IMG/VR virus record: IMGVR_UViG_3300042509_002293 | Span: 1 to 64,000 of that record | DNA length: 64,000 nt | Direction: 5' to 3' (one strand) | Source: a virus | Program-made: the position numbers and the translations under genes | The notes under the pieces: generated by a model | What the model saw: the letters and a program-made list of their open reading frames with translations, nothing else | What the model was told of the DNA's origin: nothing | Database searches by the model: none | Part shown: positions 2,987 through 57,064 of the stretch, in pieces | Numbering within the stretch: position 1 is the stretch's first letter | How the letters are laid out: each line of letters begins with the position of its first letter

Positions 2987-2988
2987 TG

Positions 2989-4336: not shown

Positions 4337-4341
4337 CCACA

Positions 4342-4976: not shown

Positions 4977-4981
4977 CCACA

Positions 4982-9815: not shown

Positions 9816-9816
9816 C

Positions 9817-10173
9817 ATGGCGAATCCCAACCTTGCGACAGCGGGAAGCATTTACGGCGGCACGGGCGTGCTCGCGGCCGGAACGTCCTCGGTGGCGATC
9901 GTGAGCAACTCCACGGCCAGCGGGAAGATCCTGAAGGTCAACTCCCTGCTCCTGGCCAACACGACGACCGGAAACGTCGACGTGACCGTGGACCTGTTCA
10001 GGTCGGGCACGGCCTACAAGATCGCCAACGCCGTGAGCGTGCCGTCCAACGCCACGCTGGCCGTGCTGTCCAAGGACAGCCCGGTCTACCTCGTCGAGGG
10101 CGACTCGCTCCGGGTCGTTGCCAGTGCGACGGCGTCGCTCTCGGCCGTGTGCTCTTACGAGGAACTCTCGTAA
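9817..10173 (+). CDS. Virion structural protein
   Basis: MANPNL...KILKVNSLLLAN...YLVEGDSLR...SYEEL. Confidence 0.6.
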   Translation: MANPNLATAGSIYGGTGVLAAGTSSVAIVSNSTASGKILKVNSLLLANTTTGNVDVTVDLFRSGTAYKIANAVSVPSNATLAVLSKDSPVYLVEGDSLRVVASATASLSAVCSYEELS

Positions 10174-12513: not shown

Positions 12514-14118
12514 GTTCTACTTCGACGAAGACAAGGCCGCCCACGCGGTCCAGTTCTTCGAGCAGTTCCTGACCCACTCCAAGGGTCAGTTCGCCGGGAA
12601 GCCTTTCTCGCTCCTCTCCTGGCAGAAGCATGACATCATCGAGGAGCTTTTCGGGTGGATGCGGGTCGACACCGACACCAGGAAGTTCCGGGTCGGCTAC
12701 ATCGAGGTGCCTAAAAAAAATGGCGTCTTGGCCCCTGCGGCTGGTTGCCGTGGGGGCCAAGACGACCATCAGGAAAGTCAACTCTCCTCAGCGGCATAGG
12801 CCTCTACACCCTAGTCGCCGACGGCGAGCAGGCGGCCGAGTGCTTCGGGTGCGCGACAAGTCGTGAGCAGGCCTCGATCGTCTACAAGCAAATGAAGGAA
12901 CTGGTCCAGGCCAGCCCCTACCTCTCCGAGATGCTGGAGGTGGTCGACTCCAGGAAGACCATCGCCTACATCCCCACGAACAGCTTCTGGAAGGTCATTT
13001 CGAGTGACGCCGGACGCCAGGAAGGCCTCAACATCCACTCGCTCTGCTATGACGAGATCCATTCCGCCCGTGACGACAGGCTTTGGCGCGCCGTCCGGTA
13101 TGGTGGAATTTCCAGAGCCCAGAGCCTCATCCTCGCCATTACGACAGCCGGCGTGGACCGGAACTCGATCGGCTACGAACTGCACGACCACGCCATGAAG
13201 TGCCGGCTCGACCCGCACTACGACGAGCAGTTCTTCGCCTTCGTGGCGGCAGCGGCCCCCGAGGACGACTACCGGGACCCGGAAGTCTGGAAGGCCGCCA
13301 ATCCTTCCTGGGGCGTGACGATGGACGAGGAGTCCTTTCGGGCTGACGTCCGGGACGCCGAGCAGTCCAACGCCCGGCTCGCCAGCTTCCTCCGATACAG
13401 GCTCAATGTCTGGACACAGGGAGACGGCAACAAGTACATCCGGCTCGACCAGTGGGACCAGTGCAAGGGCCCTTCGGGGCACCTCGGACCCGAGCGGGTG
13501 TGGTACGCCGGCCTCGACCTTGCCCAGACCTGGGACTGCAACGCCTTCGTGGCCGTCAGCAAGGGGCCGGACGACGTGTTCGACGTGCTCTGCCGGTTCT
13601 GGATCCCAGGCGAGAATGCAGGCCTTCGTTCCCAGAAAGACGGCGTGCCCTACACGCTGTGGGCGAAGGAGGAGAAGAACGGCCTGACGCTGACTCCGGG
13701 AAACACCTGCGACTACTCGTTCATCAAGCGGGACATCCTCCAGTTCTGCAAGGAGCGGACCGTCCGCCTGATCGCGGTCGACCCCCACAACAGCCACTAC
13801 CTCGTCCAGCAACTTCAGGCGGAAGGCCTGAGTGTGCAAGGATTTTCACAAGGGTTCGCCAGCATGAACCCTGGCACGAAACTTTTGAGCACCCTGATCG
13901 CTCAGGGCCGCCTGCGGACCAACGACAACCCCATCCTGAACTGGATGGCCGGAAACGCGACGACCAAGGAATCCCCCGAGGGCTACGTCAAGGTGGTAAA
14001 GCCAAGTGCCATGAGCCCTCTGAGGGTTGACGGGATTGTCGCCCTCATCATGGCTACCGCCATTGCGAACGAGGCTCCGGCTGCGGTCGCTGCCGAGCCG
14101 GAGATCCTGATCCTATGA
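12446..14118 (+). CDS. terL: Terminase large subunit, split over two frames by a 50-nt hairpin in Walker A (exact start uncertain)
   Basis: Frame A: L..WQ...LFGW...YIEVPKKNG; frame B: GKSTLLSG...DEIH...ITTAG...ANPS...GLDLA...DGIVA. Confidence 0.9.
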
Positions 14119-17100: not shown

Positions 17101-20100
17101 GAGTACGCCGAGGCGAAGGCCAAGGCGGATGCGGATCGCCAACTGGGCGAGTAGAGTCTCGCGAAGGCTCGGACTGCGGCCGAGACGACGGCGGAAAGTT
17201 CGGCCCTGGCAACAAGTGCCAGGAGGACGCCGGAGACGGCGAGCAGGAGTCCAGTGGCGGCGACACTGCCACTGCCACTCTGGCGCCGCCTCAGGTCCAC
17301 CCCGGCTCGCCGTCTCACGAGGGCCGCGTCTCTGCTCTTACGACCGGCTCCCTGCTGGACGGAAGCGAGCGTCTTGACGTCCCGACGATCCGTGGCCGTG
17401 TCCTTGAGACCGACCTGTCTCAGGCACTGACCCAGCGGGCCATCGCGGCCCACGGCGGAAGGGTCATCGACATAAACGACCGCGTGAGCGACGCGGACAT
17501 GGACGTCTGCTCCGACGCGCTGGCCGAGGATCTCGACCGGGCCGCAAAGGACCTCGGGCGTCATTCGGGCTGGTACTCCGAGGACGTTGGCCGGGCTGTT
17601 GAAATCGCCAGGAGCATGCCCGGGAACGAGAAGATCGGGGACGGCACTCGCGACGGCGAGCTTCACGACTTCGTTTTCAGCACGGCCCTCGGGATTCTCT
17701 CCCAGGAAAACACGGTCCCACAGAATGCCCGATACGCAGACGCGATGTATCGGAACTGGGTTCAGACCGGCAGCCTGATCATTCCCGAGGAACACCACTC
17801 GGCCCTGGGAAGAAGCTTCAACGCAAAGGCATTCGAGGTCGTCCAGACACTCGCCGACAGGCATGGGTGGGACGACGTGATGAAGTTCTTCTCCAAGTCC
17901 GACACTGTCGGGAACCTCGTGAAGACTGCCAACACGATGCTCCCCGACTCGCCGTACTCGCTCGGCGTCAGCAATGAACTCGTGTCGACGCGGGTGCCGA
18001 CGTTCGCGCTGTTCGGCCCCAAGATCGGCGCCTTCACCCATGCAGTCGCCAACCGGGAGCGAGCCGACGATGCTTTTGACTTTGTGGTCAAGGATCGGTG
18101 GCTCATGCGTCAGGCTGGCTCCATCTTCGGGACTCTCATGTCGCCGACGGACGGGGAGAAGTCGTCCGAGCATATGTCGAGAGTCCTGGATAGCATCAAG
18201 GGCCTTCGCACAGGAAGCCCCCTCCTTCACGGCCTGAGCGCTTCGGAGGTCAAGGCGAGCCTCCAGGAGGCCATCCGGCTGAAGACAACGCCGGACGACG
18301 ACTCCCCCGCGATGGAGTACATCCGGAGGACGGTCAAGGCTTACGCGAAAAGCTCAAGCTCGACAAACTCCACATACGCCGACAAGACTGAGCGGAATCT
18401 CGCGGCCAATAACGCCTTCAAGAACAGAACGCAGATCCTGATCGCCCCAGGGAACGGAACGCAGTCACTAAACCTTCACCGTCTCTTCGAGGAGGCGGCG
18501 AAAAAGTCTGGACGAGGTAACGTCTGCGAGGCGCAGGCGCTTGGGTGGGTGGACACGCAGCGTCTCTGGCAGAGCCTGGGCTATAAGCTGAAGACTCCGC
18601 CGGATCAGAATACGTTTAGCTCCGCGTTCTCTGCGCTCGCGTCCGGTAGGTCGGCCAGCGGAAGAATCACGGACATCGCAGCGGAGGCGGAAAGGCAACG
18701 CCGCGAGGCGGCACAGGCCAGCGGCAGGAAGTCTCGCCGAGACGCCACTGGCTCGGATGAGTGGGATTCCACCCGGGACATCAATGCAATCGGAGAGGAT
18801 CCGCAGATTCTTTTCAACGAGTCGCTGAGCGATCCTGATACCTTTAATGCGTTGCTTGAGCACATCAGCGCGTTGATCTCTCGCGACTCCTCGTCCGAGC
18901 GTCGCGCCTTCTGCCCCACCGGCGAAGGCGGCGGTGTGAAGAACGACTGCCCCCCCAGCGAGGGCGGCAGCGGTGGCGACGAAGATGACGACAAGGGCGG
19001 AGACATCGCAAAGGCTGACGATGACTCTGGGCCTCGCCCATCCTCCGGCCCCGAGATCAAGATCGGCGACAAGCCCGAGGAGATCGACCGCCGCCTGGAG
19101 GCTATGGGCATCAAGCAGGACGACGCCATCGGCATGGTGGGCGGAAGCCGCGACGGAACCTACGTCTTCGTCCGCCGCGACCACGATCGCGACGGAGGCG
19201 ACGGCCTCCACATTGAGACCACCCGCGACGTGGCCGGCGTGAAAGACGGCCTGTTCAGCCAGTCCGTCGTCTACAACGCTGGCCCGCCGCAGTCGCCTGA
19301 GCTTGTCGTCGATCACAAGCTCATGGACGTGAAGACCGACGTGAGCCGTGACCCCGAGAAGAGGCACGCCGCCGCTCGCGAGTTCTTCCGAATTATGACC
19401 GACAGCGTTCAGGAGTCGCTCAAGCGAGGAGTCTCGAAGATCACGCTCAACGCCGCCGGCGACCCCAAGCAGGCCCGCGACGGCATGTTCCGTGGGTACA
19501 CGATCTGGCCCCGGATGGGATTCAACGCTCCGATCCCGAACCACATCCGCAACAAGCTGCCGCCCGACCTGGGGCACTGCCGCACCCTCCTCGACCTCCA
19601 CGCGACCCCGGACGGAACGCGGTGGTGGAAGAAGAACGGCACGGACCTCGACGTCCAGCTTGACCTGACCAAGGCCGACAGCCCGCAGATGCAGGTCTTC
19701 GGTCGGTTCGTTCGTCACTTCGAGCGTGACCGCCGAGACCTTGCCTATGGGACCGGAGACGAATGGCTCTCGCCGGCCGACGAGGTCAAGCTCGACGAGT
19801 TGTGGCAGGAGGTCTGGGACGAGGGCCTGCTCGACGACTACACGGGCGAGGACGAAGACTTCAGGGTTTTGGAGAAGCGGGCCTTCTGCCCCACCGGCGA
19901 AGGCGGCGGGGTGAAGAATGACTGCTCGCCAAACGACGAAGGTGGCGGCGATACGGCCACGGCCCCCAGGCCGAACACTATGCCTAAGGCGAAGTACGAC
20001 GACCCCAGGAACAAGGAGTCGTGGCTGAGCACCGGAGGGGATTTTCACCCGTTCGATCGGGCGAAAGAGCCGGCCGATCGACTGAAGTCTCCGATCGGCT

Positions 20101-21284
20101 TCAATACCCACGACTTCTGGGCCAAGAAGCACGGCGTGGACGGCGGAGAGCCCGAACTGCTCGGCAAAGGCTGGATGCGGGTAACTGCTTCTGGCCGAAC
20201 GCTCTACCTCAGCAACTCCAGCGGCAATCCCCCGACCGATCGCCAGCGAAAGGTTGCGATTGACCACGCCATCGCGACGGACAAGTACGACGACATCGTC
20301 TTCGATGCCGGCTACGGCAAGCAGCCCAGGACGATCTGGAGCAAGAGGTCGAAGAAAGTACGAGGCGAGTCTCGTGCCTTCTGCGCGACAGGCGAAGGCG
20401 GCGGAATCGACAACTCGTGCGGCGCCGGCGAGAAGATGGCCGCCGACAAGGACTCCGGGGGCGGATCTTCTTCTCGATGGGGCGGGAAAGAGGAGAAGTG
20501 GGGCCGATCGAGCGAGACAGAAATCTGGACTCCGGGCAAGCCGCTCTTCCCCGGGGCCGAGAGCCTTGCCTCCATCAAGATCACGAGGCCAAACGACGTC
20601 CGGGGCATCATCGAGGACGGCCTGAAGATGAAGATTGCGGACGCCGTACTGGCCTCTGGCCCGGTAGCGGATTCCGCAGATCGATCGAGCATCACCCGCC
20701 CTCGGCTTGAGATTGTCCCAACCGGCCACGGCATCGAGATGCGGTGGACTTCAATGGGCGTCGCCACCGGAGAGGGCTTCAAGGGCGAGGAGGAGCAGTT
20801 CAAGAGTCAGCCGGGGACCGCCGTGAAGGCTGCCGCAGCCTCTCGCGACCTCTGGATCACGAATCAAGGGCCGGTCCTTAACATGGGCGGATTCTTCATT
20901 CATCCAGACTTCCAGGGCAAGGGCTTGGCGCTTGAGTCTGTGGCCAAGTCGTCGTCCTCGGGCGTCATCCGCATGGAAATGCAGGCCGAGCGATTTGATG
21001 CGGATGACCCGAATCTTCGCATGACCGGATACAAGGTGTGGCCGAAGTACGGATACGACGCCCCACTCTCTCTCGTCCGTGGGACTCTGAGGTCTCAGGA
21101 CCAGGAAATCCCCAAGGAATTTTCTGGTGCCAGGACTTTGGCCGACATTTTCCGCATGCCGGGCGGCCGTGAGTGGTGGTCCCAAAGCGGCGATTCGATC
21201 CGGCTCGTCTTCGACTGCCGCCCCAGAAGCAAGAGCGTCGAAACTCTGCTAAAATTGCAGGACCGTTACCGCAAAGGGAGGTAG
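14115..21284 (+). CDS. HK97-family portal protein (about first 410 aa) fused to about 1950 aa of cargo domains
   Basis: AC.RILAETVSVLPL...PN..QT..EF...GNSY...HIR...EIAR.Y..P..L...L.PW..RIEQ...LLRGD...NDVR..E; frame stays open for 2389 aa. Confidence 0.9.
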   Translation: MSREENAALSDIVWTPARGENEPELRSISWNNLLLSDEVFGGKFLTAAEIRINPETALQSTVLLACCRILAETVSVLPLHVYRKLKNGHEEIAEDIPLAHVLGFAPNGWQTKFEFFEQVMMNLTLWGNSYTEIKSGKYGSVTELNNLHPSNMRVERLENGRLKYTYNDPQTGRALEYTQDQVMHIRWTPQPDGVKGMMPVEIARDAIALARACEIYASKFWANMGRPGVVLQTDGAISAETAERLRDNWERIHRGVSNAYKTAILTNGLRVEQFGATNTDSQYLDVRKFQGEEIARCYRLPLHLIQGQSGGNLEVQGREFVDYTLMPWLARIEQAISRSLIYDDATYKARFDVRGLLRGDSASRASYYSTMMGLGIFSINDVRRQEGMAPLGPDADKHFVAMNLQTLEDAVKPKPDPSQMPGAPPPAPGGPPSLPEVKPGKAPMESPKGEASVKKLPEKASAEARELLPQDEKLEEAQQEIAEEDGKWEKEAAHYIEKNPFAARGIKCHNCTHYFEEAGCKIVRGLIAGDAICKLWVIPPEKIAPEPEQRAFCPTGEGNGIKNDCSPGGSYPVADSMPREVEAGHPALAARAPFSPVPEGSGNSAFAVPPSDSDLSQALIGSNKTKGTKIGKARELPEGTPVALRIDIPAFNHSTERMGKAVYAITIHEDKGGKSFGSPIGYDSMARLSGPVRFEAKENEAIRVATGESTKTPLATVKGKISQDRTIPKDVDSWTPVGYDPKKAAYFYDKRTGQEVKSGVDALSVGNTVFTRRPQYGDRNVKEHYRSADEMFASDSWGLESRGFCPTGEGGGIDNSCGRGDSSGGDSPDGPEPKRASTREVLDEILRSIEETGGYSVHPVTAESPTTGFMCSTVPGAEKIIDGKDQVTEAVVDAYFDEHRDYLSSRPKLHLGGWIDGSDGKVYLDLSERFETQEEAEKAAVEHNQLAIWDIANKKEIRIKNERAAEEDGEVRLQARRDLEGDRRGDRAGQEEGRSGVRRGEGQGGCGSPTGRVESREGSDCGRDDGGKFGPGNKCQEDAGDGEQESSGGDTATATLAPPQVHPGSPSHEGRVSALTTGSLLDGSERLDVPTIRGRVLETDLSQALTQRAIAAHGGRVIDINDRVSDADMDVCSDALAEDLDRAAKDLGRHSGWYSEDVGRAVEIARSMPGNEKIGDGTRDGELHDFVFSTALGILSQENTVPQNARYADAMYRNWVQTGSLIIPEEHHSALGRSFNAKAFEVVQTLADRHGWDDVMKFFSKSDTVGNLVKTANTMLPDSPYSLGVSNELVSTRVPTFALFGPKIGAFTHAVANRERADDAFDFVVKDRWLMRQAGSIFGTLMSPTDGEKSSEHMSRVLDSIKGLRTGSPLLHGLSASEVKASLQEAIRLKTTPDDDSPAMEYIRRTVKAYAKSSSSTNSTYADKTERNLAANNAFKNRTQILIAPGNGTQSLNLHRLFEEAAKKSGRGNVCEAQALGWVDTQRLWQSLGYKLKTPPDQNTFSSAFSALASGRSASGRITDIAAEAERQRREAAQASGRKSRRDATGSDEWDSTRDINAIGEDPQILFNESLSDPDTFNALLEHISALISRDSSSERRAFCPTGEGGGVKNDCPPSEGGSGGDEDDDKGGDIAKADDDSGPRPSSGPEIKIGDKPEEIDRRLEAMGIKQDDAIGMVGGSRDGTYVFVRRDHDRDGGDGLHIETTRDVAGVKDGLFSQSVVYNAGPPQSPELVVDHKLMDVKTDVSRDPEKRHAAAREFFRIMTDSVQESLKRGVSKITLNAAGDPKQARDGMFRGYTIWPRMGFNAPIPNHIRNKLPPDLGHCRTLLDLHATPDGTRWWKKNGTDLDVQLDLTKADSPQMQVFGRFVRHFERDRRDLAYGTGDEWLSPADEVKLDELWQEVWDEGLLDDYTGEDEDFRVLEKRAFCPTGEGGGVKNDCSPNDEGGGDTATAPRPNTMPKAKYDDPRNKESWLSTGGDFHPFDRAKEPADRLKSPIGFNTHDFWAKKHGVDGGEPELLGKGWMRVTASGRTLYLSNSSGNPPTDRQRKVAIDHAIATDKYDDIVFDAGYGKQPRTIWSKRSKKVRGESRAFCATGEGGGIDNSCGAGEKMAADKDSGGGSSSRWGGKEEKWGRSSETEIWTPGKPLFPGAESLASIKITRPNDVRGIIEDGLKMKIADAVLASGPVADSADRSSITRPRLEIVPTGHGIEMRWTSMGVATGEGFKGEEEQFKSQPGTAVKAAAASRDLWITNQGPVLNMGGFFIHPDFQGKGLALESVAKSSSSGVIRMEMQAERFDADDPNLRMTGYKVWPKYGYDAPLSLVRGTLRSQDQEIPKEFSGARTLADIFRMPGGREWWSQSGDSIRLVFDCRPRSKSVETLLKLQDRYRKGR
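16996..17154 (+). CDS. Overprinted small ORF (52 aa) inside the portal gene
   Basis: MSEQPKKMVRFDFKPGATSKEIAEAIERARKK reads as a natural protein while the portal frame here is R/G/E-rich, like an off-frame read. Confidence 0.55.
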   Translation: MSEQPKKMVRFDFKPGATSKEIAEAIERARKKVVQEYAEAKAKADADRQLGE

Positions 21285-45576: not shown

Positions 45577-45851
45577 TGCACGACCACCACTTCCACATCG
45601 GGCTGAACAACGAAAAGTGGCTCTGGCGGTACTCGCCCCTCAAGGGCGGCGCCGACGGGTGGACCGAGTACGCCAAGCGTAAGGTCCTCATCCACTCGAA
45701 GCTCAAGGGCCGCCAACGCCTCGAATGCGAACTCCACGAAGGGCTCCATGCAACTCTCGGTCCAACCGTCAGCGAGTCTTGCGTCGAGCAGGCCGCCAAG
45801 GACCTCGCCAAGATCCTCCACTCGCTCGGATACAGGCTGCATGAGTCTTAG
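45576..45851 (+). CDS. Small HExxH metallopeptidase-like protein
   Basis: LHEGLHA...E..VEQ. Confidence 0.6.
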   Translation: MHDHHFHIGLNNEKWLWRYSPLKGGADGWTEYAKRKVLIHSKLKGRQRLECELHEGLHATLGPTVSESCVEQAAKDLAKILHSLGYRLHES

Positions 45852-45909
45852 TCTGGAAAAGATAACCCCGCCCTGCTACAGTGGTCTCACCCAGTCACGG
45901 AGGCGAGGC

Positions 45910-46407
45910 ATGCGAGACGGCGACGAGTTCCTGGAGGAACTGAAGGAGGAGTTGGTCCGCGAGGACCTCCGCCCCGGGATCTTTGACCTGAACCCGAAGG
46001 ACGCCGTGGGGGCCACGAAGCTCCCGCTCCACCTCTGGCCGATGACGGCCACGGCGATGGGCTCGATCGCGATGCTCAACGGGGCCCTGAAGTACGGACG
46101 ATCCAACTGGAGGGTCGCCGGAGTCCGGGCAAGCATCTACGTCGACGCCTGCCAGCGTCACCTCGCCGCGTGGTTCGAGGGCCACGAGGCCGACGAGGAG
46201 GGCGTCCCCCACCTCGCCAGCGCCCTGGCCTGCATCGCGATCGTGATCGACGCCCAGGCCGCCGGAAAGCTTCGCGATGACCGACAGGTCCAGGGCGGGT
46301 ATCGCGAACTCGTGGCGTCCCTGACTCCGCACGTCTCGCGGCTCAAGGAACGACACGAAGCTCGCGGCCCGCGACACTGGACCATCGCTGACAACAGCCA
46401 GCCGTGA
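45910..46407 (+). CDS. dATP/dGTP diphosphohydrolase domain protein (DUF5664-like)
   Basis: NPKDAVG..KLPLHL...GALKYGRSNWR...RHL.AW..G...D...HLA.ALAC. Confidence 0.8.
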   Translation: MRDGDEFLEELKEELVREDLRPGIFDLNPKDAVGATKLPLHLWPMTATAMGSIAMLNGALKYGRSNWRVAGVRASIYVDACQRHLAAWFEGHEADEEGVPHLASALACIAIVIDAQAAGKLRDDRQVQGGYRELVASLTPHVSRLKERHEARGPRHWTIADNSQP

Positions 46408-48354: not shown

Positions 48355-48558
48355 GTGTTGCGAATACTGACCACTGTCGAGGCGGCGGCCGAACTCGGGA
48401 CCAGTCCGTCGAGCATTTCTCGCGCCGCGAGGAGGGCCGACGTCGGGCTGCGTCGCGAGGACGGTCGCCTCGTCGGCATCAGCCGCAGCGACATGGCGAA
48501 GATCAGGAAGCTGCTCCGGTACAAGGCCGGCAACCCCAACTTCGGAAAGAAGAAGTGA
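48355..48558 (+). CDS. Small HTH protein
   Basis: LTTVEAAAELGTSPSSISR. Confidence 0.65.
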   Translation: MLRILTTVEAAAELGTSPSSISRAARRADVGLRREDGRLVGISRSDMAKIRKLLRYKAGNPNFGKKK

Positions 48559-49424
48559 TGCCGCACACCGTGTACTACAGCGACGACTTCTGCCGTGCCA
48601 CCCACGCGTTCGACACGACAAGGAAGTCGAGGTGGGTCGCCGACTCGCTCCGCACTCGTCCGGTGGACGGGGTCTCGCTGGAGGCACCGGCTCCGGCTGC
48701 GGTCGCTGACGTCGAGGCCGTCCACGCCCCGGAGTACGTCGCGGCCATCCGGGACGGCGAGCCCGACGGCGTCGCCAGCAGCAGCGGGCTGGCATGGTGC
48801 GAGTCCATGCTCGGATCGGTTCTGGCAAGCACGGGAGGCATGGTCGCGGCGGTGACGCGGGCCGCCCGGAGCGGCGTCGCCGGCTCGCTGTCGTCCGGCA
48901 TGCACCACGCCCGGCGGAGCCACGGTCTCGGATTCTGCACGTTCAATGGGCTCGTCGTCGCCGCGAGGGCAGCCGAGGCTCTGGGGTACGAGCGGATCCT
49001 GATTCTCGACCTCGACGCCCACGGTGGAGGCGGGACGGCTTCTCTTATTTCCGGAAATGTACGGATAAGCCACCTCGACCTCGTCGTCGACCCGTTCGAC
49101 GTTCACGAAGACTCGATCGACCTGTCCCGGAGAAGCCCGCTCGACTACCTGACCGTGCTCTCGGCCTCCCTGGAGGCCCTCCGCCCGGACTTCGTCATCT
49201 ACAACGCCGGCATGGACGTCGCCGAGGGGGACTGCGGCCCCGGCGGCTTCGACTCGCGGATCATCGCCGCCCGCGAGGTGACGGTCTTCGAGTGGGCTCA
49301 GCGGATCGGGGTGCCCATCTGCTACGGACTCGCCGGCGGGTACGAGTCGCCGACCCGGTCGCGGGAGTCGCTCGTGGCTCACCATCGCTCGACCATCAGG
49401 GCCGCAGAGCGGATCTGCGGCTGA
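48558..49424 (+). CDS. Histone-deacetylase (HDAC/AcuC) family protein
   Basis: VH.PEY, GMHHA, GFCTFN, ILDLDAHGG, YNAGMD, GGY. Confidence 0.9.
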   Translation: MPHTVYYSDDFCRATHAFDTTRKSRWVADSLRTRPVDGVSLEAPAPAAVADVEAVHAPEYVAAIRDGEPDGVASSSGLAWCESMLGSVLASTGGMVAAVTRAARSGVAGSLSSGMHHARRSHGLGFCTFNGLVVAARAAEALGYERILILDLDAHGGGGTASLISGNVRISHLDLVVDPFDVHEDSIDLSRRSPLDYLTVLSASLEALRPDFVIYNAGMDVAEGDCGPGGFDSRIIAAREVTVFEWAQRIGVPICYGLAGGYESPTRSRESLVAHHRSTIRAAERICG

Positions 49425-49675: not shown

Positions 49676-50064
49676 GCGGAGTCGACCATCCCTCGCACTA
49701 CAACTCGCACCCCAGCGGCGTCGAGGCGATCGACATCGTCGAGCACCTGCCGTTCAACGTCGGCAACGCTCTGAAGTACGTCTTCAGGCGAGAGCACAAG
49801 GGCCGGGAACGCGAGGACCTGGAGAAGGCCGTCTGGTACCTGAGGCGGGAACTGGAGCGGATCCGCAAGTCTCGCGATTTTGATCGATGGACGCCGACGG
49901 ACGGATACCTGAAGGCGGTCGCGGCCGCGTCGGCCAGGGACCCGTCCCCGGAGATCGGCGAGGTGATCTCGCTGCTCGCCACGTCCAGGTTCGACGAAAG
50001 CCCGGAGGCCGCATCGATCCGAGAGAGCCTCCGCATCCTCTGCCGAATCCTGGAGTCGACATGA
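49672..50064 (+). CDS. DUF3310 (T7 gp1.7-like) protein
   Basis: VDHPSHY...EAID...GNALKY..R..HKG...DLEKA.WYL. Confidence 0.85.
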   Translation: MSGVDHPSHYNSHPSGVEAIDIVEHLPFNVGNALKYVFRREHKGREREDLEKAVWYLRRELERIRKSRDFDRWTPTDGYLKAVAAASARDPSPEIGEVISLLATSRFDESPEAASIRESLRILCRILEST

Positions 50065-50282
50065 GAGACCACGACCGCAACGTCCGCCGTGTCGCCGAGT
50101 GGTTCGCGCTCGCCGTGTTCGTCGCCCTCCCCGTGGCGTCACTCTTCGGCGACGAAGGGCTCAAGGCGTTCACGGTCGCAGCGGCGGCCACCAGCATTGT
50201 CGCCGTGTCGCCGATCTTCTACGAACTCATGGAACTGACGATCGAAACCTCGACTAGAAAGGAATCCGATGATCACGTTTGA
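50061..50282 (+). CDS. Small membrane protein
   Basis: Two hydrophobic segments. Confidence 0.5.
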   Translation: MRDHDRNVRRVAEWFALAVFVALPVASLFGDEGLKAFTVAAAATSIVAVSPIFYELMELTIETSTRKESDDHV

Positions 50283-50580
50283 CGAACTCGTCGACCTCGT
50301 GGAGCGGTGGGCGAGCGACCGGAGGATCGTTCCGAACAGCACCCCCCAGGCCCAGCTTCTCAAGACAGTGAGCGAACTCGGGGAACTCTCCGACGCGACG
50401 CTCAAGGGAGACGAGGCCGAGGTCGTCGACGGAGTCGGGGACGTGCTCGTGACTCTGATCATCTACGCGAAGCTCCAGGGGCTCGACCTCACCCACTGCC
50501 TGAACTCCGCCTACCAGACGATCCGCAACCGGCGGGGCACGCTCACGCCCGAGGGCGTGTTCGTGAAGGAGGGGGCGTGA
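50269..50580 (+). CDS. MazG-like NTP pyrophosphohydrolase
   Basis: WA.DR...QLLK..SELGEL...DGVGDVLVTL...CL..AY..I..R.G...FVK. Confidence 0.85.
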   Translation: MITFDELVDLVERWASDRRIVPNSTPQAQLLKTVSELGELSDATLKGDEAEVVDGVGDVLVTLIIYAKLQGLDLTHCLNSAYQTIRNRRGTLTPEGVFVKEGA

Positions 50581-51164
50581 GGAAGATCATCTCGCTCTTC
50601 CAGCGAAACTACGGCGGCGACCATCTCGTTCGGGGCGAGGTCGTGCCCGGGGCCGAGTGGGTGATTGCCGGAGAGGGCACCCCGACGCGAAAGTACGACG
50701 GGACGTGCTGCCTCATCAGGGACGGCAGGCTCTACAGGCGGTTCGACGCCAAGCGGGGGAAGTCGCCTCCCGGTGGGTTCATTCCGGCCCAGGACCCGGA
50801 CCCCGTGACCGGGCACTGGCCCGGATGGTTGCTCGTCGACTTCGACAACCCGGCCGACCGCTGGCATGCCGTGGCATCGATTGGACGCTCGCTCGTCGGC
50901 ATGGACGGGACCTGGGAACTGTGCGGACCCAAGATCAACGGCAACCCGGAGGGTCTCCTCGAACACCAACTGCTCCGGCACGGATACCCGCTAGACGACT
51001 GCGACGCGAGGGACTACCTGTCCATCCGGGACTACCTCTCAGGCAAGGACATCGAGGGCATCGTCTGGCATCACCCGGACGGCCGCATGGTGAAGATCAA
51101 GAAGCGGGACTTCGGGCTTGACCGTAATACGGATACGAGTACACTCTCGGCCGCTGTCCCGTAG
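50577..51164 (+). CDS. ATP-dependent RNA ligase, RLIG1/C12orf29 (DUF5565)-like
   Basis: Motif I TRKYDGTCC, GHWPGW, ELCGPKINGNP, IEGIVWH..DG.MVKIK. Confidence 0.8.
   Translation: MRKIISLFQRNYGGDHLVRGEVVPGAEWVIAGEGTPTRKYDGTCCLIRDGRLYRRFDAKRGKSPPGGFIPAQDPDPVTGHWPGWLLVDFDNPADRWHAVASIGRSLVGMDGTWELCGPKINGNPEGLLEHQLLRHGYPLDDCDARDYLSIRDYLSGKDIEGIVWHHPDGRMVKIKKRDFGLDRNTDTSTLSAAVP
51118..51145 (+). promoter_or_regulatory. Putative promoter for the Y RNA array and Ro60
   Basis: TTGACC-16 nt-TACACT ending about 10 nt before the first RNA unit. Confidence 0.5.
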
Positions 51165-51225
51165 TGAAGAGCGCGGTTACTCCACAATTGCTAGGAAAGA
51201 ACACCGCACTCGCTTGTTCTCGGGC
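51156..51225 (+). ncRNA. Y RNA-like unit 1 (minimal, Ro-binding stem only)
   Basis: CGTAGTG...CGGTTACTCC...TGTTCTCG framework shared with units 2-4. Confidence 0.6.
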
Positions 51226-51240
51226 GATAAATCAATCCAC

Positions 51241-51339
51241 AGGCGTAGTGATATGGGTCGGCTACTTCATGGATGAACGATCGGCCTCGTGCTGATTGGC
51301 CGGTTCGAGCCCGGCATCCGCCCCAGCCCGTTCTCGCCT
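51241..51339 (+). ncRNA. Y RNA-like unit 2 (T-arm only)
   Basis: AGGCG/CGCCT closing stem; GCCGG-TTCGAGC-CCGGC T-arm. Confidence 0.7.
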
Positions 51340-51346
51340 CTCGATA

Positions 51347-51473
51347 CAGGGACGTAGTGTTGTTCGCGGCTACTTCAAGTGGACGCAAGTTCGAGTCTTG
51401 CCGCCTGGGGCTGCGCTGCCTTCGGCGACGCCGGTGCTGGCTCCCGGCACCGCGAGCAGTTGTTCTCGCCCTG
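51347..51473 (+). ncRNA. Y RNA-like unit 3
   Basis: CAGGG/CCCTG closing stem; GCAAG-TTCGAGT-CTTGC T-arm plus extra hairpins. Confidence 0.7.
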
Positions 51474-51482
51474 ACAATCCTC

Positions 51483-51620
51483 GGCTGTAGTGAAGAGGTC
51501 GGCTACTTCTTTTAGGAAGACGAGACGCCGGTTCGACTCCGGCCCCCTCCACTGCAAAGGCCCCGGAGGGGTAGCTCAACGGTAGAGCGCGATACGTTCC
51601 GTCCTCGCCTGTTCTCGGCC
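51483..51620 (+). ncRNA. YrlA-type Y RNA with permuted tRNA-like domain
   Basis: T-arm GCCGG-TTCGACT-CCGGC, closed acceptor-like stem CCCCTCC/GGAGGGG, then D-arm TAGCTCAACGGTAGAGC; next to Ro60. Confidence 0.85.
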
Positions 51621-51652
51621 TTGGTTTTCCTCCAGTCCAGAAAGGGATCCCG

Positions 51653-52951
51653 ATGAAGCTCAACGTCGCAGACTACTCCCGCCAGACGACCCACGAGGGC
51701 GGGCCAGCCAAGCGGATCTCGCCCGAGCAGGAACTCCGTCGGAGCGTCCTCTCGTGCCTCTTGTGGGAGAAGCAGTTCTACGAGGACGGCCAGGACATCG
51801 CCGATCGCATCGAGAGTCTCTGCGAGAAGGTCGATCCCAGCGTGATCGCGGCCCTCGCTGTCGAGGCCAGGACGGCATTCCACCTCCGGCATGTTCCGCT
51901 CCTCCTGGCGTCGTGCCTCGCCAAGCGGGGCGGAGGACGTCTCGTGGCCGACACGGTCGAGGCCGTGGTCCAGCGTGCAGACGAGTTGGCCGAGATCCTC
52001 GCCGTCTACTGGCGGAACGGCCGGTGCCCGATCTCGAACGGCCTGAAGAAGGGCCTCGCCCTCGCGTTCACGAAGTTCTCGCCGTACCAACTGGCAAAGT
52101 ACAACCGAGACGGAGCGATCAAGCTCCGGGACGTCCTGTTCCTCGTCCACGCCAAGCCCAAGGACGCCGATCAGGCGGAGACCTGGAAGAAGCTCGTCGA
52201 CGGCACCCTTGAGTCTCCCGATACCTGGGAGGTCTCGCTCTCCGCCGGTGCCGGCAAGCGTGAGACGTTCGAGAGGCTCATCCGAGAGGGGAAGCTCGGC
52301 TATCTCGCCCTCCTGCGGAACCTCCGCAATATGGCCGAGGCCGGGGTCGACTCCTCGGCGGTCAAGAATGCGATCCTCTGCCGTGCCGGCGCCGGCCGGG
52401 TGCTGCCGTTCCGCTACGTTGCGGCGGCGAGGGCCTGCCCGCAGTACGAGACGACGCTCGACATCGCCCTGCTTGCGGCCATCTCGGAACTGCCGGCCCT
52501 GCCGGGCAAGACGCTCGTGCTCGTCGACATCTCCGGGAGCATGGACTCCGCATTGTCTGGAAAGAGTGACCTGAGGCGGATCGACGCGGCGGCCGCCCTG
52601 GCGAGCATCATTCCCGGGGACGTGCGGGTCTTCTCGTTCACCGACGCAGTCAAGGAGGTCCCGCCCAGGCGGGGCATGGCGGGGGTCGACGCGATCCTCT
52701 CGTCTCAGCCCCACGGCGGGACGTACCTTGGCCATGCCGTGAAGGCGATGAATGCGATCGAGCACGACCGGCTCGTGGTCATCACCGACGAGCAGTCGGC
52801 GGACTCCGTCCCGGACCCGCTCGCGAAGCATGCCTACATGATCAACGTGGCCTCGCACCGCAACGGTGTCGGCTACGGACGCTGGACCCACCTCGACGGA
52901 TTCTCCGAGAACGTCATCCGCTTCATCGCAGAGAGCGAGGCGGGCCGATGA
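51653..52951 (+). CDS. rsr: Ro60/Rsr (TROVE + vWA) RNA-binding protein
   Basis: THEGG.A, LW...FYE.G, YQLAKY, TWE..LS, ALLRNLRN, PFRY, DISGSM, GGT, ITDEQ, GFSE. Confidence 0.92.
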   Translation: MKLNVADYSRQTTHEGGPAKRISPEQELRRSVLSCLLWEKQFYEDGQDIADRIESLCEKVDPSVIAALAVEARTAFHLRHVPLLLASCLAKRGGGRLVADTVEAVVQRADELAEILAVYWRNGRCPISNGLKKGLALAFTKFSPYQLAKYNRDGAIKLRDVLFLVHAKPKDADQAETWKKLVDGTLESPDTWEVSLSAGAGKRETFERLIREGKLGYLALLRNLRNMAEAGVDSSAVKNAILCRAGAGRVLPFRYVAAARACPQYETTLDIALLAAISELPALPGKTLVLVDISGSMDSALSGKSDLRRIDAAAALASIIPGDVRVFSFTDAVKEVPPRRGMAGVDAILSSQPHGGTYLGHAVKAMNAIEHDRLVVITDEQSADSVPDPLAKHAYMINVASHRNGVGYGRWTHLDGFSENVIRFIAESEAGR

Positions 52952-53154
52952 TGAAGCTCGCAGCATCGGCGACGGTGGGAGTCCTGGCGATCATTTTCCT
53001 GGTCGCGATCTATCTCGCGGCCGGTCTCGCCGCCATGATCGCCTGGAATCTCTGCATGCCGTCGCTGTTCGCCCTGCCACGGGCGACGTTCGCCAACGGA
53101 GTCGGGCTTGCGATCCTGTCCAGCCTCATGCAGGTGCGTTTCCCGGCCAAATAG
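52951..53154 (+). CDS. Small membrane protein
   Basis: Hydrophobic; WN..MP.LF.LP. Confidence 0.55.
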   Translation: MKLAASATVGVLAIIFLVAIYLAAGLAAMIAWNLCMPSLFALPRATFANGVGLAILSSLMQVRFPAK

Positions 53155-53161
53155 CTGCCTA

Positions 53162-53190
53162 TTGCATCGGCTTGCCGATAGTGCTATGAT
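53162..53190 (+). promoter_or_regulatory. sigma70-like promoter with internal palindrome
   Basis: TTGCAT-17 nt-TATGAT containing ATCGGC-TT-GCCGAT; AAGGAGGT RBS follows. Confidence 0.65.
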
Positions 53191-53216
53191 CGGGCACCAA
53201 CCCAAGGAGGTGCCCG

Positions 53217-53597
53217 ATGCCCGCAACTAAGAGCCTGACCAAGTCCGACGAAATCGAGACGCTGCACGGCTTCGTGCAGTCCCTTCCTCGCTTCTCGTAC
53301 CTGCGATCGGCCCTGGAGCCGTTCCTGGTCGACTTCGAGCGGGGCGTCTACTCGGACTACGTTCCGAGTGTCCGCGAGTCCTGGGACGCCAGGATCGCCG
53401 CCGACAAGGAGGCCTCCGAGGCCAGAGCGAAGGCCCAGGAGGCACGCAACGACGCCGAGAAGGCTCGTCGCGAGGGGTGCCTTGTCCACGCCCAGCTTCA
53501 GAAGCTCGTCGAGGCCCTTCGTGAAGTGAAGGTCTCGGCCGAGGTCGCCGAGCGTTCGGCCAAGGGCGTGGCGTCCAAGCTGTCTTCATCCCTCTGA
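53217..53597 (+). CDS. Hypothetical coiled-coil protein
   Basis: Strong RBS, helical C-terminus. Confidence 0.7.
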   Translation: MPATKSLTKSDEIETLHGFVQSLPRFSYLRSALEPFLVDFERGVYSDYVPSVRESWDARIAADKEASEARAKAQEARNDAEKARREGCLVHAQLQKLVEALREVKVSAEVAERSAKGVASKLSSSL

Positions 53598-55563: not shown

Positions 55564-55832
55564 TTAAGAAACCCAAGTACGTCCTCGAACCGTCCACCGA
55601 GCGTCGCATCGCGGCCCGGGAGGCGGCCCGGATCCTCGACCTCTCGATGGGGCACCTGCGAAGCTTGGCTCGCAAGGAGATTCTCCGATCGTGGAAGATC
55701 GGCCCCAGCACCGTGCTGTACAGCCTCGACGAGATCGTGGCCTACGGCAAGGAGAAGGCCGAAGGCCGCCGGAAGGGGAAGGTCCGAGGCGCCCGCCCGC
55801 AGGGGTTCTCCCCGGACGCATCCGGCGAATAG
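55560..55832 (+). CDS. HTH DNA-binding protein
   Basis: AREAARILDLSMGHLRSLAR...YSLDEI; own candidate promoter TTGACC-17 nt-GACAAT at 55525-55553. Confidence 0.7.
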   Translation: MIKKPKYVLEPSTERRIAAREAARILDLSMGHLRSLARKEILRSWKIGPSTVLYSLDEIVAYGKEKAEGRRKGKVRGARPQGFSPDASGE

Positions 55833-55884
55833 GCCTGTTTTTGCGGGCTTTTTGTGACCAGTGTCATAGAGACTTGCCCCACAC

Positions 55885-55913
55885 TTGCAATGCACCGAGG
55901 CCGGTGCTATACT
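55885..55913 (+). promoter_or_regulatory. Repeated promoter-operator, copy 1
   Basis: TTGCAA-TGCACCGAGGCCGGTGC-TATACT. Confidence 0.85.
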
Positions 55914-55957
55914 CTTGGGGTCGGACGAAACCACCCGCCAACGAAGGACTGAAACCC

Positions 55958-57064
55958 ATGAACAACGTCGCCGCCGCCCCCGCCTGGAAGAGCTACTACG
56001 TCGGAGCCACCGTCGCCACCCCTGACGGCATCGAGTGGAAGATCATCGAGTGCCAGAAGCGGCCCACGGCCAAGGGCTACCAGAGCCGCGTGTTCACGCT
56101 GCTCGGTCCTGACGGACGCAAGGTCCGGAAGACCGCCCGTGGCATCACCCTGTTCTCAGCGGGGGTCGAGGTCAGCGAGGCGAAGCCCCAGGTCGTCGAG
56201 TTCGCCCCGGCGGAGCCTGTCGCTCCGGCCCCCGTGGTGGAGCCCGTCCCGGGTCAGGTCCGGCATGCCAACTACGGGGCCCTCCTACGGGCGGTCGCCG
56301 CGAAGTGCAACGTCTGGCTCGTCGGCCCGGCCGGCTCCGGCAAGACCTCGGCCGCCGAGAACGTGGCCAAGGACCTCGGCCTGCCCTTCTACTCGAAGAG
56401 CGTCGGCCCGCAGACCAGCGAGTCGAGCCTCCTGGGCTACCAGGACGCCAACGGACGCACGGTCCGGACGCTCCTCCGCGAGGCGTTTGAGCACGGCGGC
56501 GTGTTTCTCCTGGACGAGGTCGACGCGGCCAACCCGGCCGTCCTCGTCGTGATCAACGCCCTGCTCGCGAACGGCCACTGCGCGTTCCCGGACGGGGTCG
56601 TCGAGAAGCATCCGGACTTCACGCTGATCGCCGGCGCCAACACGATCGGCCAGGGTGCGGACCGCCAGTACGTCGGCCGGCAGCAGATCGACGCCGCGAC
56701 GCTCGACCGGTTCGTGAATCTCGTGTGGGACTACGATCCGGCGATCGAGGCCGCCGCCGCCGGCGTCCCGCTCGCCGCCGTGGCCGACGCCCCCAGGCCT
56801 GCGGCCATCGCGTTCGAGGTCGGCGTCACGCCCGCCGAGACCGAGCGGCGGGCCGCCGAGTACGTCCGGTACGTCGTGGCGGTCCGCAACGCCGTGGCGT
56901 CGTTCGGCAAGTCTGTCCGGTTCATCGTCAGCCCTCGGGCCAGCAAGCATGGGGCCGCCCTGGTCCGGGCCGGGTTCTCGATCGCGGACGCCTGCGAACT
57001 GGCGATCTGGAAGGGGCTCGACTCCGACACCCGGGCCAAGCTGGAGGCGGCCGCCGCACGCTAG
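55958..57064 (+). CDS. MoxR/CbbQ-like AAA+ ATPase
   Basis: GPAGSGKT, LLDEVD, HPDF.LIA.ANT.G.G...Y.GR...DAATLDRF, SPR. Confidence 0.9.
   Translation: MNNVAAAPAWKSYYVGATVATPDGIEWKIIECQKRPTAKGYQSRVFTLLGPDGRKVRKTARGITLFSAGVEVSEAKPQVVEFAPAEPVAPAPVVEPVPGQVRHANYGALLRAVAAKCNVWLVGPAGSGKTSAAENVAKDLGLPFYSKSVGPQTSESSLLGYQDANGRTVRTLLREAFEHGGVFLLDEVDAANPAVLVVINALLANGHCAFPDGVVEKHPDFTLIAGANTIGQGADRQYVGRQQIDAATLDRFVNLVWDYDPAIEAAAAGVPLAAVADAPRPAAIAFEVGVTPAETERRAAEYVRYVVAVRNAVASFGKSVRFIVSPRASKHGAALVRAGFSIADACELAIWKGLDSDTRAKLEAAAAR

What the first reader, a model, noticed from the sequence alone, without database searches (positions are those of the whole stretch)
50577..52951. Phage RNA-repair module: RLIG1-like ligase, four Y RNAs and Ro60
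Seen: an ATP-dependent ligase with RLIG1/C12orf29-like motifs whose stop codon overlaps the first of four Y RNA-like units, followed by a full TROVE-vWA gene. Known: bacterial Ro60/Y RNA loci often pair with RtcB (Salmonella rsr-yrlBA-rtcBA), and a few phages encode Ro60 and YrlA. Inference: coupling to a 5'-P/3'-OH ligase instead of RtcB suggests a distinct repair or decoy system against host tRNA/RNA-cleaving defences.
Basis: partly seen in the sequence, partly recalled or inferred. Interest (0 to 1): 0.85.

Follow-up and report, generated by a model that had tools for sequence, protein, structure and literature searches.

The report
Phage Ro60/Y-RNA locus beside RNA ligase
An uncultured 96-kb phage carries a normal phage Ro60 protein gene with four partner Y RNAs, and a small human-RLIG1-type RNA-sealing enzyme gene sits directly in front; that pairing is rare and absent from the closest relative, so a fixed "repair module" is not shown.

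Summary
- **Ligase.** The 195-aa ORF at 50577-51164 is an RLIG1/C12orf29-family ATP-dependent RNA ligase.
- **Ro60.** 51653-52951 is a full TROVE-vWA Ro60.
- **RNAs.** The 490-nt spacer holds exactly four Y-RNA-like units. A covariance model built only from other phages' Ro60-upstream RNAs finds these four and nothing else in 64 kb.

- **The Ro60/Y unit is ordinary.** The Y-array plus Ro60 has its own promoter-like site. The model found 201 more such units, all on the Ro60 strand, in 79 further viral Ro60 loci.
- **The ligase is not part of that unit.** Of 87 other Ro60 loci, only L028 has it.
- **The ligase normally travels alone.** Of 240 ligase loci, only L028 has Ro60.
- **The slot is variable.** The closest relative (L260, Ro60 78% identical) has the same MazG, promoter, Y RNAs and Ro60, with a DUF7768 gene where the ligase sits here.

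Some association remains. The two ligase-linked loci lie in separate Ro60 clades. Other loci of this Ro60 group carry RtcB+PNKP+RlaP, or PF09414 ligases, nearby. A loose link between Ro60/Y RNPs and RNA sealing is therefore plausible.

The scan has noted Ro60-like genes with RNA arrays and nearby ligases on other phage DNA before.

The parts
50269..50580 (+). MazG-like nucleotide pyrophosphohydrolase. Its stop overlaps the ligase start (GTGA). It is conserved in the closest relative, L260.
   Evidence: PF03819 at 26.8 bits and phrog_1992/715. 74% aa identity to L260:4962-5270.
50577..51164 (+). Minimal (195 aa) RLIG1/C12orf29-family ATP-dependent 5'-P/3'-OH RNA ligase. Motif I is K39-x-D41-G42; E114, E160-G161, K173 and K175 are also conserved. 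Residues 187-195 are disordered and are a read-through into the next promoter-like site and unit 1.
   Evidence: Family and structure matches. Invariant residues from 47 homologues. K39 aligns with the lysine mutated in 9c6m, K73M.
51118..51145 (+). Sigma-70-like promoter (TTGACC, 16 nt, TACACT) inside the ligase 3' end. Inferred start about 7-9 nt downstream, where unit 1 begins.
   Evidence: It is the only promoter-like site in 50000-53400; shuffles give 0.1. The same hexamers and spacing occur in L260 (TTGCAC, 16 nt, TACATT), downstream of the stop of the gene in the ligase slot. Similar TTGACA-type sites precede the arrays in L085, L086, L092 and L001.
51154..51228 (+). Y RNA unit 1: short, YrlB-like, handle only, no tRNA-like part. 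It contains the ligase stop codon.
   Evidence: R1 at 42.2 bits, E 1.9e-8. Homologous unit at L260:5648-5718.
51238..51342 (+). Y RNA unit 2: handle plus a hairpin and a T-arm-like hairpin (GCCGG-UUCGAGC-CCGGC). It has no counterpart in L260.
   Evidence: R1 at 35.5 bits, E 1e-6. Fold. L260 has only three units.
51347..51474 (+). Y RNA unit 3: handle plus a T-arm-like hairpin (GCAAG-UUCGAGU-CUUGC) and two further hairpins.
   Evidence: R1 at 31.5 bits, E 1e-5. Fold. Homologue at L260:5721-5838.
51480..51623 (+). Y RNA unit 4: YrlA-like tRNA mimic, made of handle, T arm, acceptor-like stem and D arm.
   Evidence: R1 at 26.2 bits, E 2e-4; the model alignment is cut at 51547 by the long insert. 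Rfam YrlA positions 28-81, 32 bits, E 8e-5. The handle closes at 51482-51621. Homologue at L260:5843-5980.
51653..52951 (+). Ro60 orthologue: TROVE/HEAT ring plus a vWA domain with an intact MIDAS motif (D-x-S-G-S ... T-D).
   Evidence: Family and structure matches. Invariant D292, S294, G295, S296, T378 and D379 in 11 homologues.
52948..53154 (+). Small ORF whose start overlaps the Ro60 stop (ATGA). Weak match to phage membrane-protein families. Its role in the locus is unknown.
   Evidence: phrog_705, E 1e-6, and phrog_2169.

Best explanation
**Two separable parts lie side by side.**

**(1) A conserved phage Ro60/Y-RNA unit**
- It consists of a sigma-70-like promoter, four Y RNAs and a TROVE-vWA Ro60 gene.
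- The four RNAs share one Ro-binding 'handle'. This is a basal stem, a bulged U, a 2-bp clamp, a conserved asymmetric loop and an upper stem.
- The RNAs carry different payloads. Unit 4 is a YrlA-type tRNA mimic, units 2 and 3 carry T-arm-like hairpins, and unit 1 is handle only.
- Inferred: the RNAs are made as one transcript with the Ro60 mRNA, processed, and bound by Ro60.
- Inferred from the bacterial and phiLo systems: the RNP tethers host RNA-decay or tRNA-handling enzymes, or decoys them.

**(2) A sealing-only RLIG1-family RNA ligase**
- It occupies a variable gene slot between MazG and that promoter-like site.
- Inferred from the family's biochemistry: it adenylates itself on K39 and joins 5'-phosphate and 3'-OH RNA ends, such as broken tRNA anticodon loops.
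- The phage encodes no end-healing enzyme from the six families I searched. It could therefore only reseal clean 5'-P/3'-OH breaks, or ends healed by host enzymes.

**Relationship between the two**
- They probably serve the same arena: damage to RNA in phage-host conflict.
- The ligase is an occasional add-on, not an obligate subunit.
For: **RNA family and structure**
- In 17 units from other phages, 84.9% of cells are paired, against 58.7% in shuffles and 40-53% when partners are slid. 14 of 16 pairs change on both sides.
- The clamp covaries across lineages: GG:CC in most, AG:CU in all four window units, GC:GC in the L089/L092/L090 group.
- The model finds 4 of 4 units here.
- It finds 201 more at E <= 0.001 in the 79 further Ro60 loci searched, all on the Ro60 strand and nearly all just upstream of the gene. 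It finds none in the rest of this genome.
- R1-type units with tRNA-like parts give full-length Rfam YrlA matches in Xanthomonas phage 10KY502B (55.9 and 46.7 bits) and in the 279,967-bp record L317, which I take to be CcrColossus by its length (42.3 bits).

**Own promoter-like site, shared with L260**.

**Ligase family, fold and catalytic residues**.
- Bacterial and viral C12orf29 homologues seal tRNA anticodon-loop nicks with 5'-P/3'-OH ends (bioRxiv 10.1101/2024.04.24.590974).

**Ligase is separable from the Ro60 unit**
- L260 has DUF7768 in the slot.
- Ro60 accompanies the ligase in 1 of 240 ligase loci.
- The ligase has no conserved neighbour in 80 viral loci.

**Same arena**
- Two separate Ro60 clades carry the ligase directly upstream of the array.
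- L269 has Ro60-RtcB-HAD_PNKP-RlaP. L305 and L262 have PF09414 ligases 1.4 and 3.7 kb from Ro60.

**No healing enzymes in this genome**
- No credible AAA_33 kinase: one 16.3-bit match, below the 27-bit cut-off, at 56312-56380 inside the AAA ATPase ORF 55691-57064.
- No hits for HAD_PNKP, Metallophos, 2H, HD or RtcB.
- No tRNA genes.
Against: - Nothing here shows expression, Ro60 binding or ligase activity.
- The promoter is a consensus match only.
- In L028 no promoter-like site separates the ligase from the first unit, so there the ligase, RNAs and Ro60 may be one transcript. That would fit tighter coupling.
- The healing-enzyme search covered six families only.
- The host is unknown: the large terminase is at most 38% identical to any cultured phage's.
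Confidence: 0.55

Rival explanations
1. **Dedicated coupled module.** The ligase works physically with the Ro60-Y RNP. For example, tRNA-like Y RNA payloads bring broken tRNAs or their nucleases to the ring, and the ligase reseals them. This would be an ATP-ligase analogue of rsr-yrlBA-rtcBA.
For: - The ligase lies immediately upstream of the array in two phages whose Ro60s sit on opposite sides of the deepest, well-supported split of the Ro60 tree. Each is nested among ligase-less loci.
- Rough expectation: about 165 ligase-bearing and at least 581 Ro60-bearing contigs among 2.9 million viral contigs. By my own estimate this predicts far fewer than one shared contig by chance.
- In L028 the only + strand promoter-like site lies upstream of the ligase.
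- Ligases of other families sit next to Ro60 in the same clade.
- RtcB-Ro60 linkage is known in bacteria (PMC7790460).
Against: - The linkage is absent from the closest relative and from 86 of 87 other Ro60 loci; 79 of the 87 have at least 1.5 kb upstream.
- It is absent from 239 of 240 ligase loci.
- The array has its own promoter-like site here.
- The ligase tree is unresolved, so one shared origin of the two linked ligases is not excluded.
- No healing enzymes were found.
Confidence: 0.25
2. **Chance neighbours in an accessory-gene hot spot.** The slot between MazG and the Y-array promoter-like site accepts unrelated cargo. The ligase has a role unconnected to Ro60, such as independent tRNA repair or nick sealing.
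For: - The slot holds DUF7768 in L260.
- Flanking genes are a mixed bag: HDAC-like, DUF3310, MazG and a dNTP diphosphohydrolase-like protein.
- In other phages the ligase sits beside methylase, capsid, DnaB, HNH or terminase genes, with no recurrent partner.
Against: - Two juxtapositions at the same position relative to the array, in distant Ro60 clades.
- Recurrent ligases of other families near Ro60.
Confidence: 0.2

Closest known systems
Bacterial and phage Ro60 (Rsr) with YrlA/YrlB Y RNAs (Chen et al. 2014, PMC4201824), and Thermus phage phiLo Ro60 with Yrl1/Yrl2 (PMC12135203)
   Same: - TROVE-vWA protein with Y RNAs encoded directly upstream on the same strand.
- At least one RNA carries a tRNA-like T arm, stem and D arm.
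- The 5' handle motif corresponds to the published GNCGAA(N)G motif; it is exact (GGCGAAGG) in L084 and L087 and reads GUAGUGAAG here.
- The protein matches 9l5y over its full length.
   Different: - Four units here rather than one or two. Arrays of 4-7 are nevertheless common in this phage clade.
- No unit reaches Rfam's YrlA gathering score.
- The bulged base is U, and the clamp is AG:CU in this lineage.
Salmonella rsr-yrlBA-rtcBA RNA-repair operon (PMC7790460)
   Same: Ro60, Y RNAs and an RNA ligase lie in one same-strand cluster. The nearest phage or provirus analogue found here is L269: Y array, Ro60, RtcB, HAD_PNKP, RlaP.
   Different: - The ligase here is an ATP-dependent 5'-P/3'-OH sealer, not the GTP-dependent 3'-P/5'-OH ligase RtcB.
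- No RtcB was found in the genome; RtcA and RtcR were not searched for.
- The ligase lies upstream of the array and outside its promoter-like site.
- The linkage is not conserved.
RLIG1 / C12orf29 RNA ligases (PMC9931718; bioRxiv 10.1101/2024.04.24.590974; PDB 9c6l)
   Same: - Pfam PF17720 match.
- KxDG lysine aligned with the catalytic lysine of 9c6l.
- Same fold (TM 0.76).
- Conserved Glu and Lys motifs.
   Different: - 195 aa, against 277 for Yasminevirus and about 325 for human by my recollection (the Pfam model has 324 positions). The N-terminal extension and insertions are missing.
- About 26% identity to 9c6l.
- The same short form is already annotated 'RNA ligase' in Mycobacterium (Kratiovirus), Ralstonia and Cellulophaga phages, none of which has Ro60 beside it where checked.

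Membership tests
RLIG1/C12orf29 RNA ligase family (PF17720) | Pfam model above its gathering score | tested here: met
   42.2 bits against 25, but only profile positions 191-280 of 324 are covered. phrog_14301 is covered end to end at 240 bits.
RLIG1/C12orf29 RNA ligase family (PF17720) | Motif I lysine nucleophile (KxDG) aligned with the catalytic lysine | tested here: met
   K39-Y-D-G aligns with K-T-D-G of 9c6l. That lysine is Met in the K73M entry 9c6m. K39, D41 and G42 are invariant in 47 homologues.
RLIG1/C12orf29 RNA ligase family (PF17720) | Fold of the solved family member | tested here: met
   AF2 pLDDT 92.4. Foldseek gives 9c6l at E 1.7e-13, TM 0.76. The next family, Naegleria Rnl, has E 0.07.
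RLIG1/C12orf29 RNA ligase family (PF17720) | ATP-dependent joining of 5'-P and 3'-OH RNA ends | not testable with these tools
   Needs an adenylation and ligation assay.
Ro60/Rsr (TROVE + vWA) | TROVE domain followed by a vWA domain with a MIDAS motif, and full-length similarity to a solved Ro60 | tested here: met
   TROVE 52.7 bits against 23. VWA_2 25.8 bits, just under 27. 9l5y/9kop E 2.5e-30 over residues 12-431. The DxSGS...TD residues are invariant.
YrlA (Rfam RF02553) | Score at or above Rfam's gathering threshold (69 bits) | tested here: not met
   No hit at gathering. Unit 4 gives 32 bits, partial. The tRNA-like units of the CcrColossus-sized record L317 (42.3 bits) and Xanthomonas phage 10KY502B (55.9 bits) also fail, so the threshold misses this whole phage clade.
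YrlA (Rfam RF02553) | Architecture: 5'/3' stem with a Ro-binding motif enclosing T arm, stem-loop and D arm, encoded within 4 kb of Ro60 | tested here: met
   Met by unit 4: handle, then T arm, stem and D arm aligned to model positions 28-81, ending 30 nt before Ro60. Units 1-3 have the handle but not the full tRNA-like part, so they are YrlB-like or intermediate.
Y RNA (functional definition) | Bound by Ro60 in vivo | not testable with these tools
   Needs immunoprecipitation or EMSA.
Ro60-ligase RNA-repair operon (rsr-yrl-rtcBA type) | Ligase conserved with Ro60/Y RNAs across relatives | tested here: not met
   1 of 87 other Ro60 loci and 1 of 240 ligase loci show the pairing. It is absent from the closest relative, L260.
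Ro60-ligase RNA-repair operon (rsr-yrl-rtcBA type) | End-healing or regulatory partners (RtcA, PNKP, RtcR) | tested here: not met
   No credible AAA_33 (one 16.3-bit sub-threshold match in the AAA ATPase ORF). No HAD_PNKP, Metallophos, 2H, HD or RtcB match in the 96-kb genome. RtcA and RtcR were not searched.

The most novel reading that the evidence does not exclude
Phage Ro60-Y RNPs may be platforms that repeatedly recruit a sealing enzyme from whichever ligase family is at hand: RLIG1-like here and in L028, RtcB in L269, PF09414 in L305 and L262. Here the four Y RNAs would present tRNA-like baits, and the RLIG1-type ligase would reseal 5'-P/3'-OH breaks. Such breaks are made by metal-dependent tRNA or rRNA nucleases. 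This would be a healing-free counter-defence distinct from T4 Pnk/Rnl1 and from RtcB systems.
Probability: 0.2. Interest if true: 0.7.

Novelty: new member of a known kind. Interest (0 to 1): 0.4.

Why it matters
- **If the link is real.** What Ro60/Y RNPs do next to RNA ligases is still open even for the Salmonella operon (PMC7790460). A phage version with a simple, sealing-only ligase of the human RLIG1 family would be a compact system in which to test it.
- **As it stands.** The useful results are narrower:
  - A structure-supported model of the phage Y-RNA handle recovers about 200 units that Rfam's YrlA threshold misses.
  - Multi-unit Y arrays are the rule in this Ro60 clade.
  - The ligase is an exchangeable neighbour rather than part of the unit.

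Tried and rejected
- **Rfam at gathering threshold.** Nothing in the window. In 11 related loci the only hit was one 'tRNA', which is the payload of a Y unit.
- **ARAGORN.** No tRNA or tmRNA in the window or the whole genome. The weak tmRNA hits are T-arm matches only.
- **Folding the whole spacer.** No better than shuffles, z = +0.98. Single units were also unremarkable by energy. Covariation, not stability, carries the evidence.
- **Near-identical phage.** Megablast of 20 kb against cultured phages found nothing.
- **MazG as a ligase partner.** Not found in 80 ligase loci.
- **Conserved ligase neighbours.** None; the best cluster occurs in 5 of 80 loci. tRNA genes lie near 6 of 80 viral and 13 of 80 genomic ligase loci.
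- **Ligase tree.** Too poorly resolved to decide between one and two origins.
- **L089 ligase-like ORFs.** They are DNA_ligase_A_M with Ku, which looks like NHEJ. I do not count them as RNA ligases.
- **ProFaNA supplement.** It lists TROVE, but I could not tie that row to the DUF5565 analysis.
- **Papers not held.** Burroughs & Aravind 2016 and the 2020 Annual Review could not be read.
Full report
**Context**

The window is the first 64 kb of a 96,079-bp uncultured virus record estimated 98% complete. It encodes a large terminase, a portal fused to a long extension, a head protease, a major capsid protein, a tape measure protein and an integrase. It is therefore most likely a temperate tailed phage. 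G+C is about 64%. No cultured phage is close: megablast found nothing, and the terminase is at most 38% identical to any cultured phage's. The finding lies in a same-strand accessory region downstream of the integrase.

**The ligase**

- The ORF at 50577-51164 starts at a GTG that overlaps the MazG stop. Its first residues match the family consensus.
- Matches:
  - PF17720 RLIG1: 42.2 bits against a cut-off of 25.
  - phrog_14301 'RNA ligase': end to end, 240 bits.
  - PDB 9c6l, the Yasminevirus C12orf29 5'-to-3' RNA ligase: E 1.6e-16.
- K39 in K-Y-D-G aligns with the lysine that is mutated in 9c6m.
- In 47 homologues K39, D41, G42, E114, E160, G161 and K173 are invariant.
- The AF2 model has mean pLDDT 92.4, with only residues 187-195 disordered.
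- Its best structural matches are the 9c6l/9c6m chains (E 1.7e-13, TM 0.76). Other RNA ligases score far behind, at E 0.07 or worse.
- The family joins 5'-phosphate and 3'-OH RNA ends, and bacterial and viral homologues seal tRNA anticodon-loop nicks in vitro (bioRxiv 10.1101/2024.04.24.590974; PMC9931718).
- The same short form is already annotated 'RNA ligase' in Mycobacterium, Ralstonia and Cellulophaga phages.

**Ro60**

- The ORF at 51653-52951 has a TROVE domain (52.7 bits) and a vWA domain.
- It matches phrog_850 and aligns over its full length with the solved Ro60 of Thermus phage phiLo (E 2.5e-30).
- The MIDAS residues are invariant among 11 homologues.

**The four RNAs**

- The 490-nt spacer contains four direct repeats of a unit. 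Each has a 5' GUAGUG...GGCUACUUC segment and a 3' UGUUCUCG segment.
- The regions upstream of Ro60 in ten related viral loci, in L028 and in Xanthomonas phage 10KY502B carry the same kind of unit. There the motifs read GGUG(A/U)AG...GGUUACUUC and UGUUCCC.
- Per-unit folds and an anchored pairing search give one common architecture:
  1. a basal stem of 5-8 bp;
  2. a bulged U;
  3. a 2-bp clamp;
  4. an asymmetric internal loop;
  5. an upper stem;
  6. a variable payload.
- The clamp covaries between lineages. It is GG:CC in most, AG:CU in all four window units, and GC:GC in the L089/L092/L090 group.
- Structure support comes from an alignment of 17 short units, none from the window:
  - 84.9% of cells pair, against 58.7% in shuffles and 40-53% when partners are slid.
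  - 14 of 16 pairs change on both sides.
- The covariance model built from that alignment finds exactly four hits in the 64-kb window, all in this spacer.
- It finds none in the other 32 kb of the genome. It finds 201 more at E <= 0.001 in the 79 further viral Ro60 loci searched. All are on the Ro60 strand, and nearly all lie just upstream of the gene.
- Arrays of four to seven units are common. For example, there are seven in L317, a 279,967-bp record I take to be CcrColossus by its length.
- Payloads differ between the window's units:

| Unit | Payload |
|---|---|
| 1 | handle only |
| 2 | a hairpin and a T-arm-like hairpin |
| 3 | a T-arm-like hairpin and two further hairpins |
| 4 | T arm, acceptor-like stem and D arm, matching Rfam YrlA positions 28-81 (32 bits, E 8e-5) |

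- No unit reaches Rfam's gathering score of 69. The tRNA-like units of L317 (42.3 bits) and of Xanthomonas phage 10KY502B (55.9 bits, full length) also miss it. Chen et al. report YrlA RNAs in most of the phage genomes they searched (PMC4201824), and PMC12135203 names CcrColossus among phages with Y RNA-like RNAs and Ro60. The shortfall is therefore a limit of the curated threshold for this clade.
- The published 5' motif GNCGAA(N)G (PMC4201824) is exact in L084 and L087 (GGCGAAGG) and degenerate here.

I conclude that these are YrlA/YrlB-type Y RNAs of a known kind.

**Transcription**

- The only sigma-70-like site in 50000-53400 is TTGACC, 16 nt, TACACT at 51118-51145. It sits inside the ligase 3' end, and the inferred start falls where unit 1 begins.
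- No terminator-like site separates unit 4 from Ro60. Co-transcription of the RNAs with Ro60 is inferred.

**Is the ligase part of the system?**

I tested linkage in both directions.

- **Starting from the ligase:**
  - Ro60 is adjacent in 1 of 80 viral loci (L028), 0 of 80 metagenomic loci and 0 of 80 bacterial or archaeal loci.
  - TROVE is present anywhere in only 1 of 50 ligase-bearing viral records, 22 of which are at least 90% complete.
  - The RNA model hits only L028 among the ligase loci.
  - The ligase has no recurrent neighbour. The commonest are methylase, capsid, DnaB, HNH and terminase genes, each in five loci or fewer.
- **Starting from Ro60:**
  - None of the ten closest records has the ligase, nor do 79 further loci.
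  - Of the 87 other Ro60 loci, 79 have at least 1.5 kb upstream, so the absence is not a contig-end artefact.
- **The closest relative is the most informative:**
  - L260 has Ro60 at 78% aa identity and 70-77% nucleotide identity on both sides.
  - It has the same MazG (74% aa), the same promoter-like hexamers and spacing, homologues of units 1, 3 and 4, and Ro60.
  - A 112-aa DUF7768 gene occupies the place of the ligase.
  - The ligase's last dozen residues are unconserved and disordered. They are encoded by the promoter region and the start of unit 1, a stretch that is 72% identical to L260, where it lies downstream of the stop of the slot gene.
  - The stop-codon overlap therefore looks like a by-product of a gene sitting in a variable slot.

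**Evidence for a looser link**

- On a tree of 88 Ro60 proteins the two ligase-linked loci fall on opposite sides of the deepest, well-supported split. The window pairs with L260 (support 99) and L028 with L312 (support 90). The adjacency therefore needs two changes.
- The ligase tree is unresolved and does not exclude a shared origin of the two ligases.
- About 165 ligase-bearing and at least 581 Ro60-bearing contigs were found among 2.9 million viral contigs. By my rough estimate, chance predicts far fewer than one shared contig.
- Other sealing enzymes occur near Ro60 in the same clade:
  - L269 has Y array, Ro60, RtcB, HAD_PNKP phosphatase and RlaP in a row.
  - L305 has a PF09414 RNA ligase 1.4 kb downstream of Ro60.
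  - L262 has one 3.7 kb upstream.
- L089/L313 has a minimal DNA-ligase-type ORF right after Ro60 and a second copy beside Ku. That looks like NHEJ, and I do not count it.
- Most loci have nothing of the kind: 5 of 49 records have RtcB anywhere, and only one has it adjacent to Ro60.

**Mechanism**

- **Shown by comparison:** the identities, the structure of the RNA handle, the separability of the ligase, and the sealing-only gene content.
  - There is no credible AAA_33 kinase. The one 16.3-bit match is below the 27-bit cut-off and lies in the AAA ATPase ORF.
  - There are no HAD_PNKP, Metallophos, 2H, HD or RtcB matches and no tRNA genes.
- **Inferred from the families:**
  - Ro60 binds the four RNAs through the handle.
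  - The payloads engage host tRNA-handling or RNA-decay enzymes. Deinococcus and phiLo Ro60/Y RNA do this with PNPase (PMC4201824, PMC12135203).
  - Alternatively, the payloads decoy anticodon nucleases, as suggested for YrlA (PMC7790460).
  - The ligase reseals 5'-P/3'-OH breaks.

**Verdict**

- The components are ordinary members of known families.
- The pairing is rare and recurs at most twice in what I searched. That is suggestive but not established.

Earlier notes of this scan describe Ro60-like genes with RNA arrays, and sometimes a ligase nearby, in other phages. I treated these as leads only.

Noticed in passing
L269:1400-5913: A provirus contig of the same Ro60 clade carries a Y-RNA array, Ro60 (1743-3056), RtcB (3066-4292), a HAD_PNKP phosphatase (4292-4924) and RlaP (4873-5913) in a row. 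This is a complete RNA-repair operon on a viral record.
   Followed up: partly
L260:5270-5607: In the closest relative, the slot that holds the ligase here holds a 112-aa DUF7768 gene. The slot between MazG and the Y-array promoter-like site is therefore exchangeable.
   Followed up: yes
L089:6439-7038 and 9322-10771: A minimal 199-aa ATP-dependent DNA-ligase-domain ORF lies 98 nt after Ro60. A 70%-identical second copy sits next to a Ku gene. This looks like an NHEJ pair on or beside a provirus.
   Followed up: partly
window 48555-49424: Histone-deacetylase-family ORF (PF00850, 109 bits) in the same accessory region. It is unusual cargo for a phage.
   Followed up: no
window 45748-46407 and 50269-50580: Two nucleotide-pyrophosphatase-type genes lie near each other. 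One has a dATP/dGTP diphosphohydrolase N-domain (77 bits); the other is the MazG-like gene.
   Followed up: no
window 14115-21284: The portal protein (first approximately 500 residues) is fused to about 1,900 further residues in one 2,389-aa ORF.
   Followed up: no
window 51238-51342: Unit 2 has no counterpart in L260. Its T-arm region is 76% identical to that of unit 4 (51299-51327 against 51527-51555). It may be a recent partial duplication.
   Followed up: partly
L001:3798-3865 (OQ622092.1 20624-20691): The 'tRNA-Thr' annotated in Xanthomonas phage 10KY502B lies inside a Y-RNA unit. That unit gives a full-length Rfam YrlA match (46.7 bits) and carries the shared handle. It is probably a Y-RNA payload, not a decoding tRNA.
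   Followed up: partly
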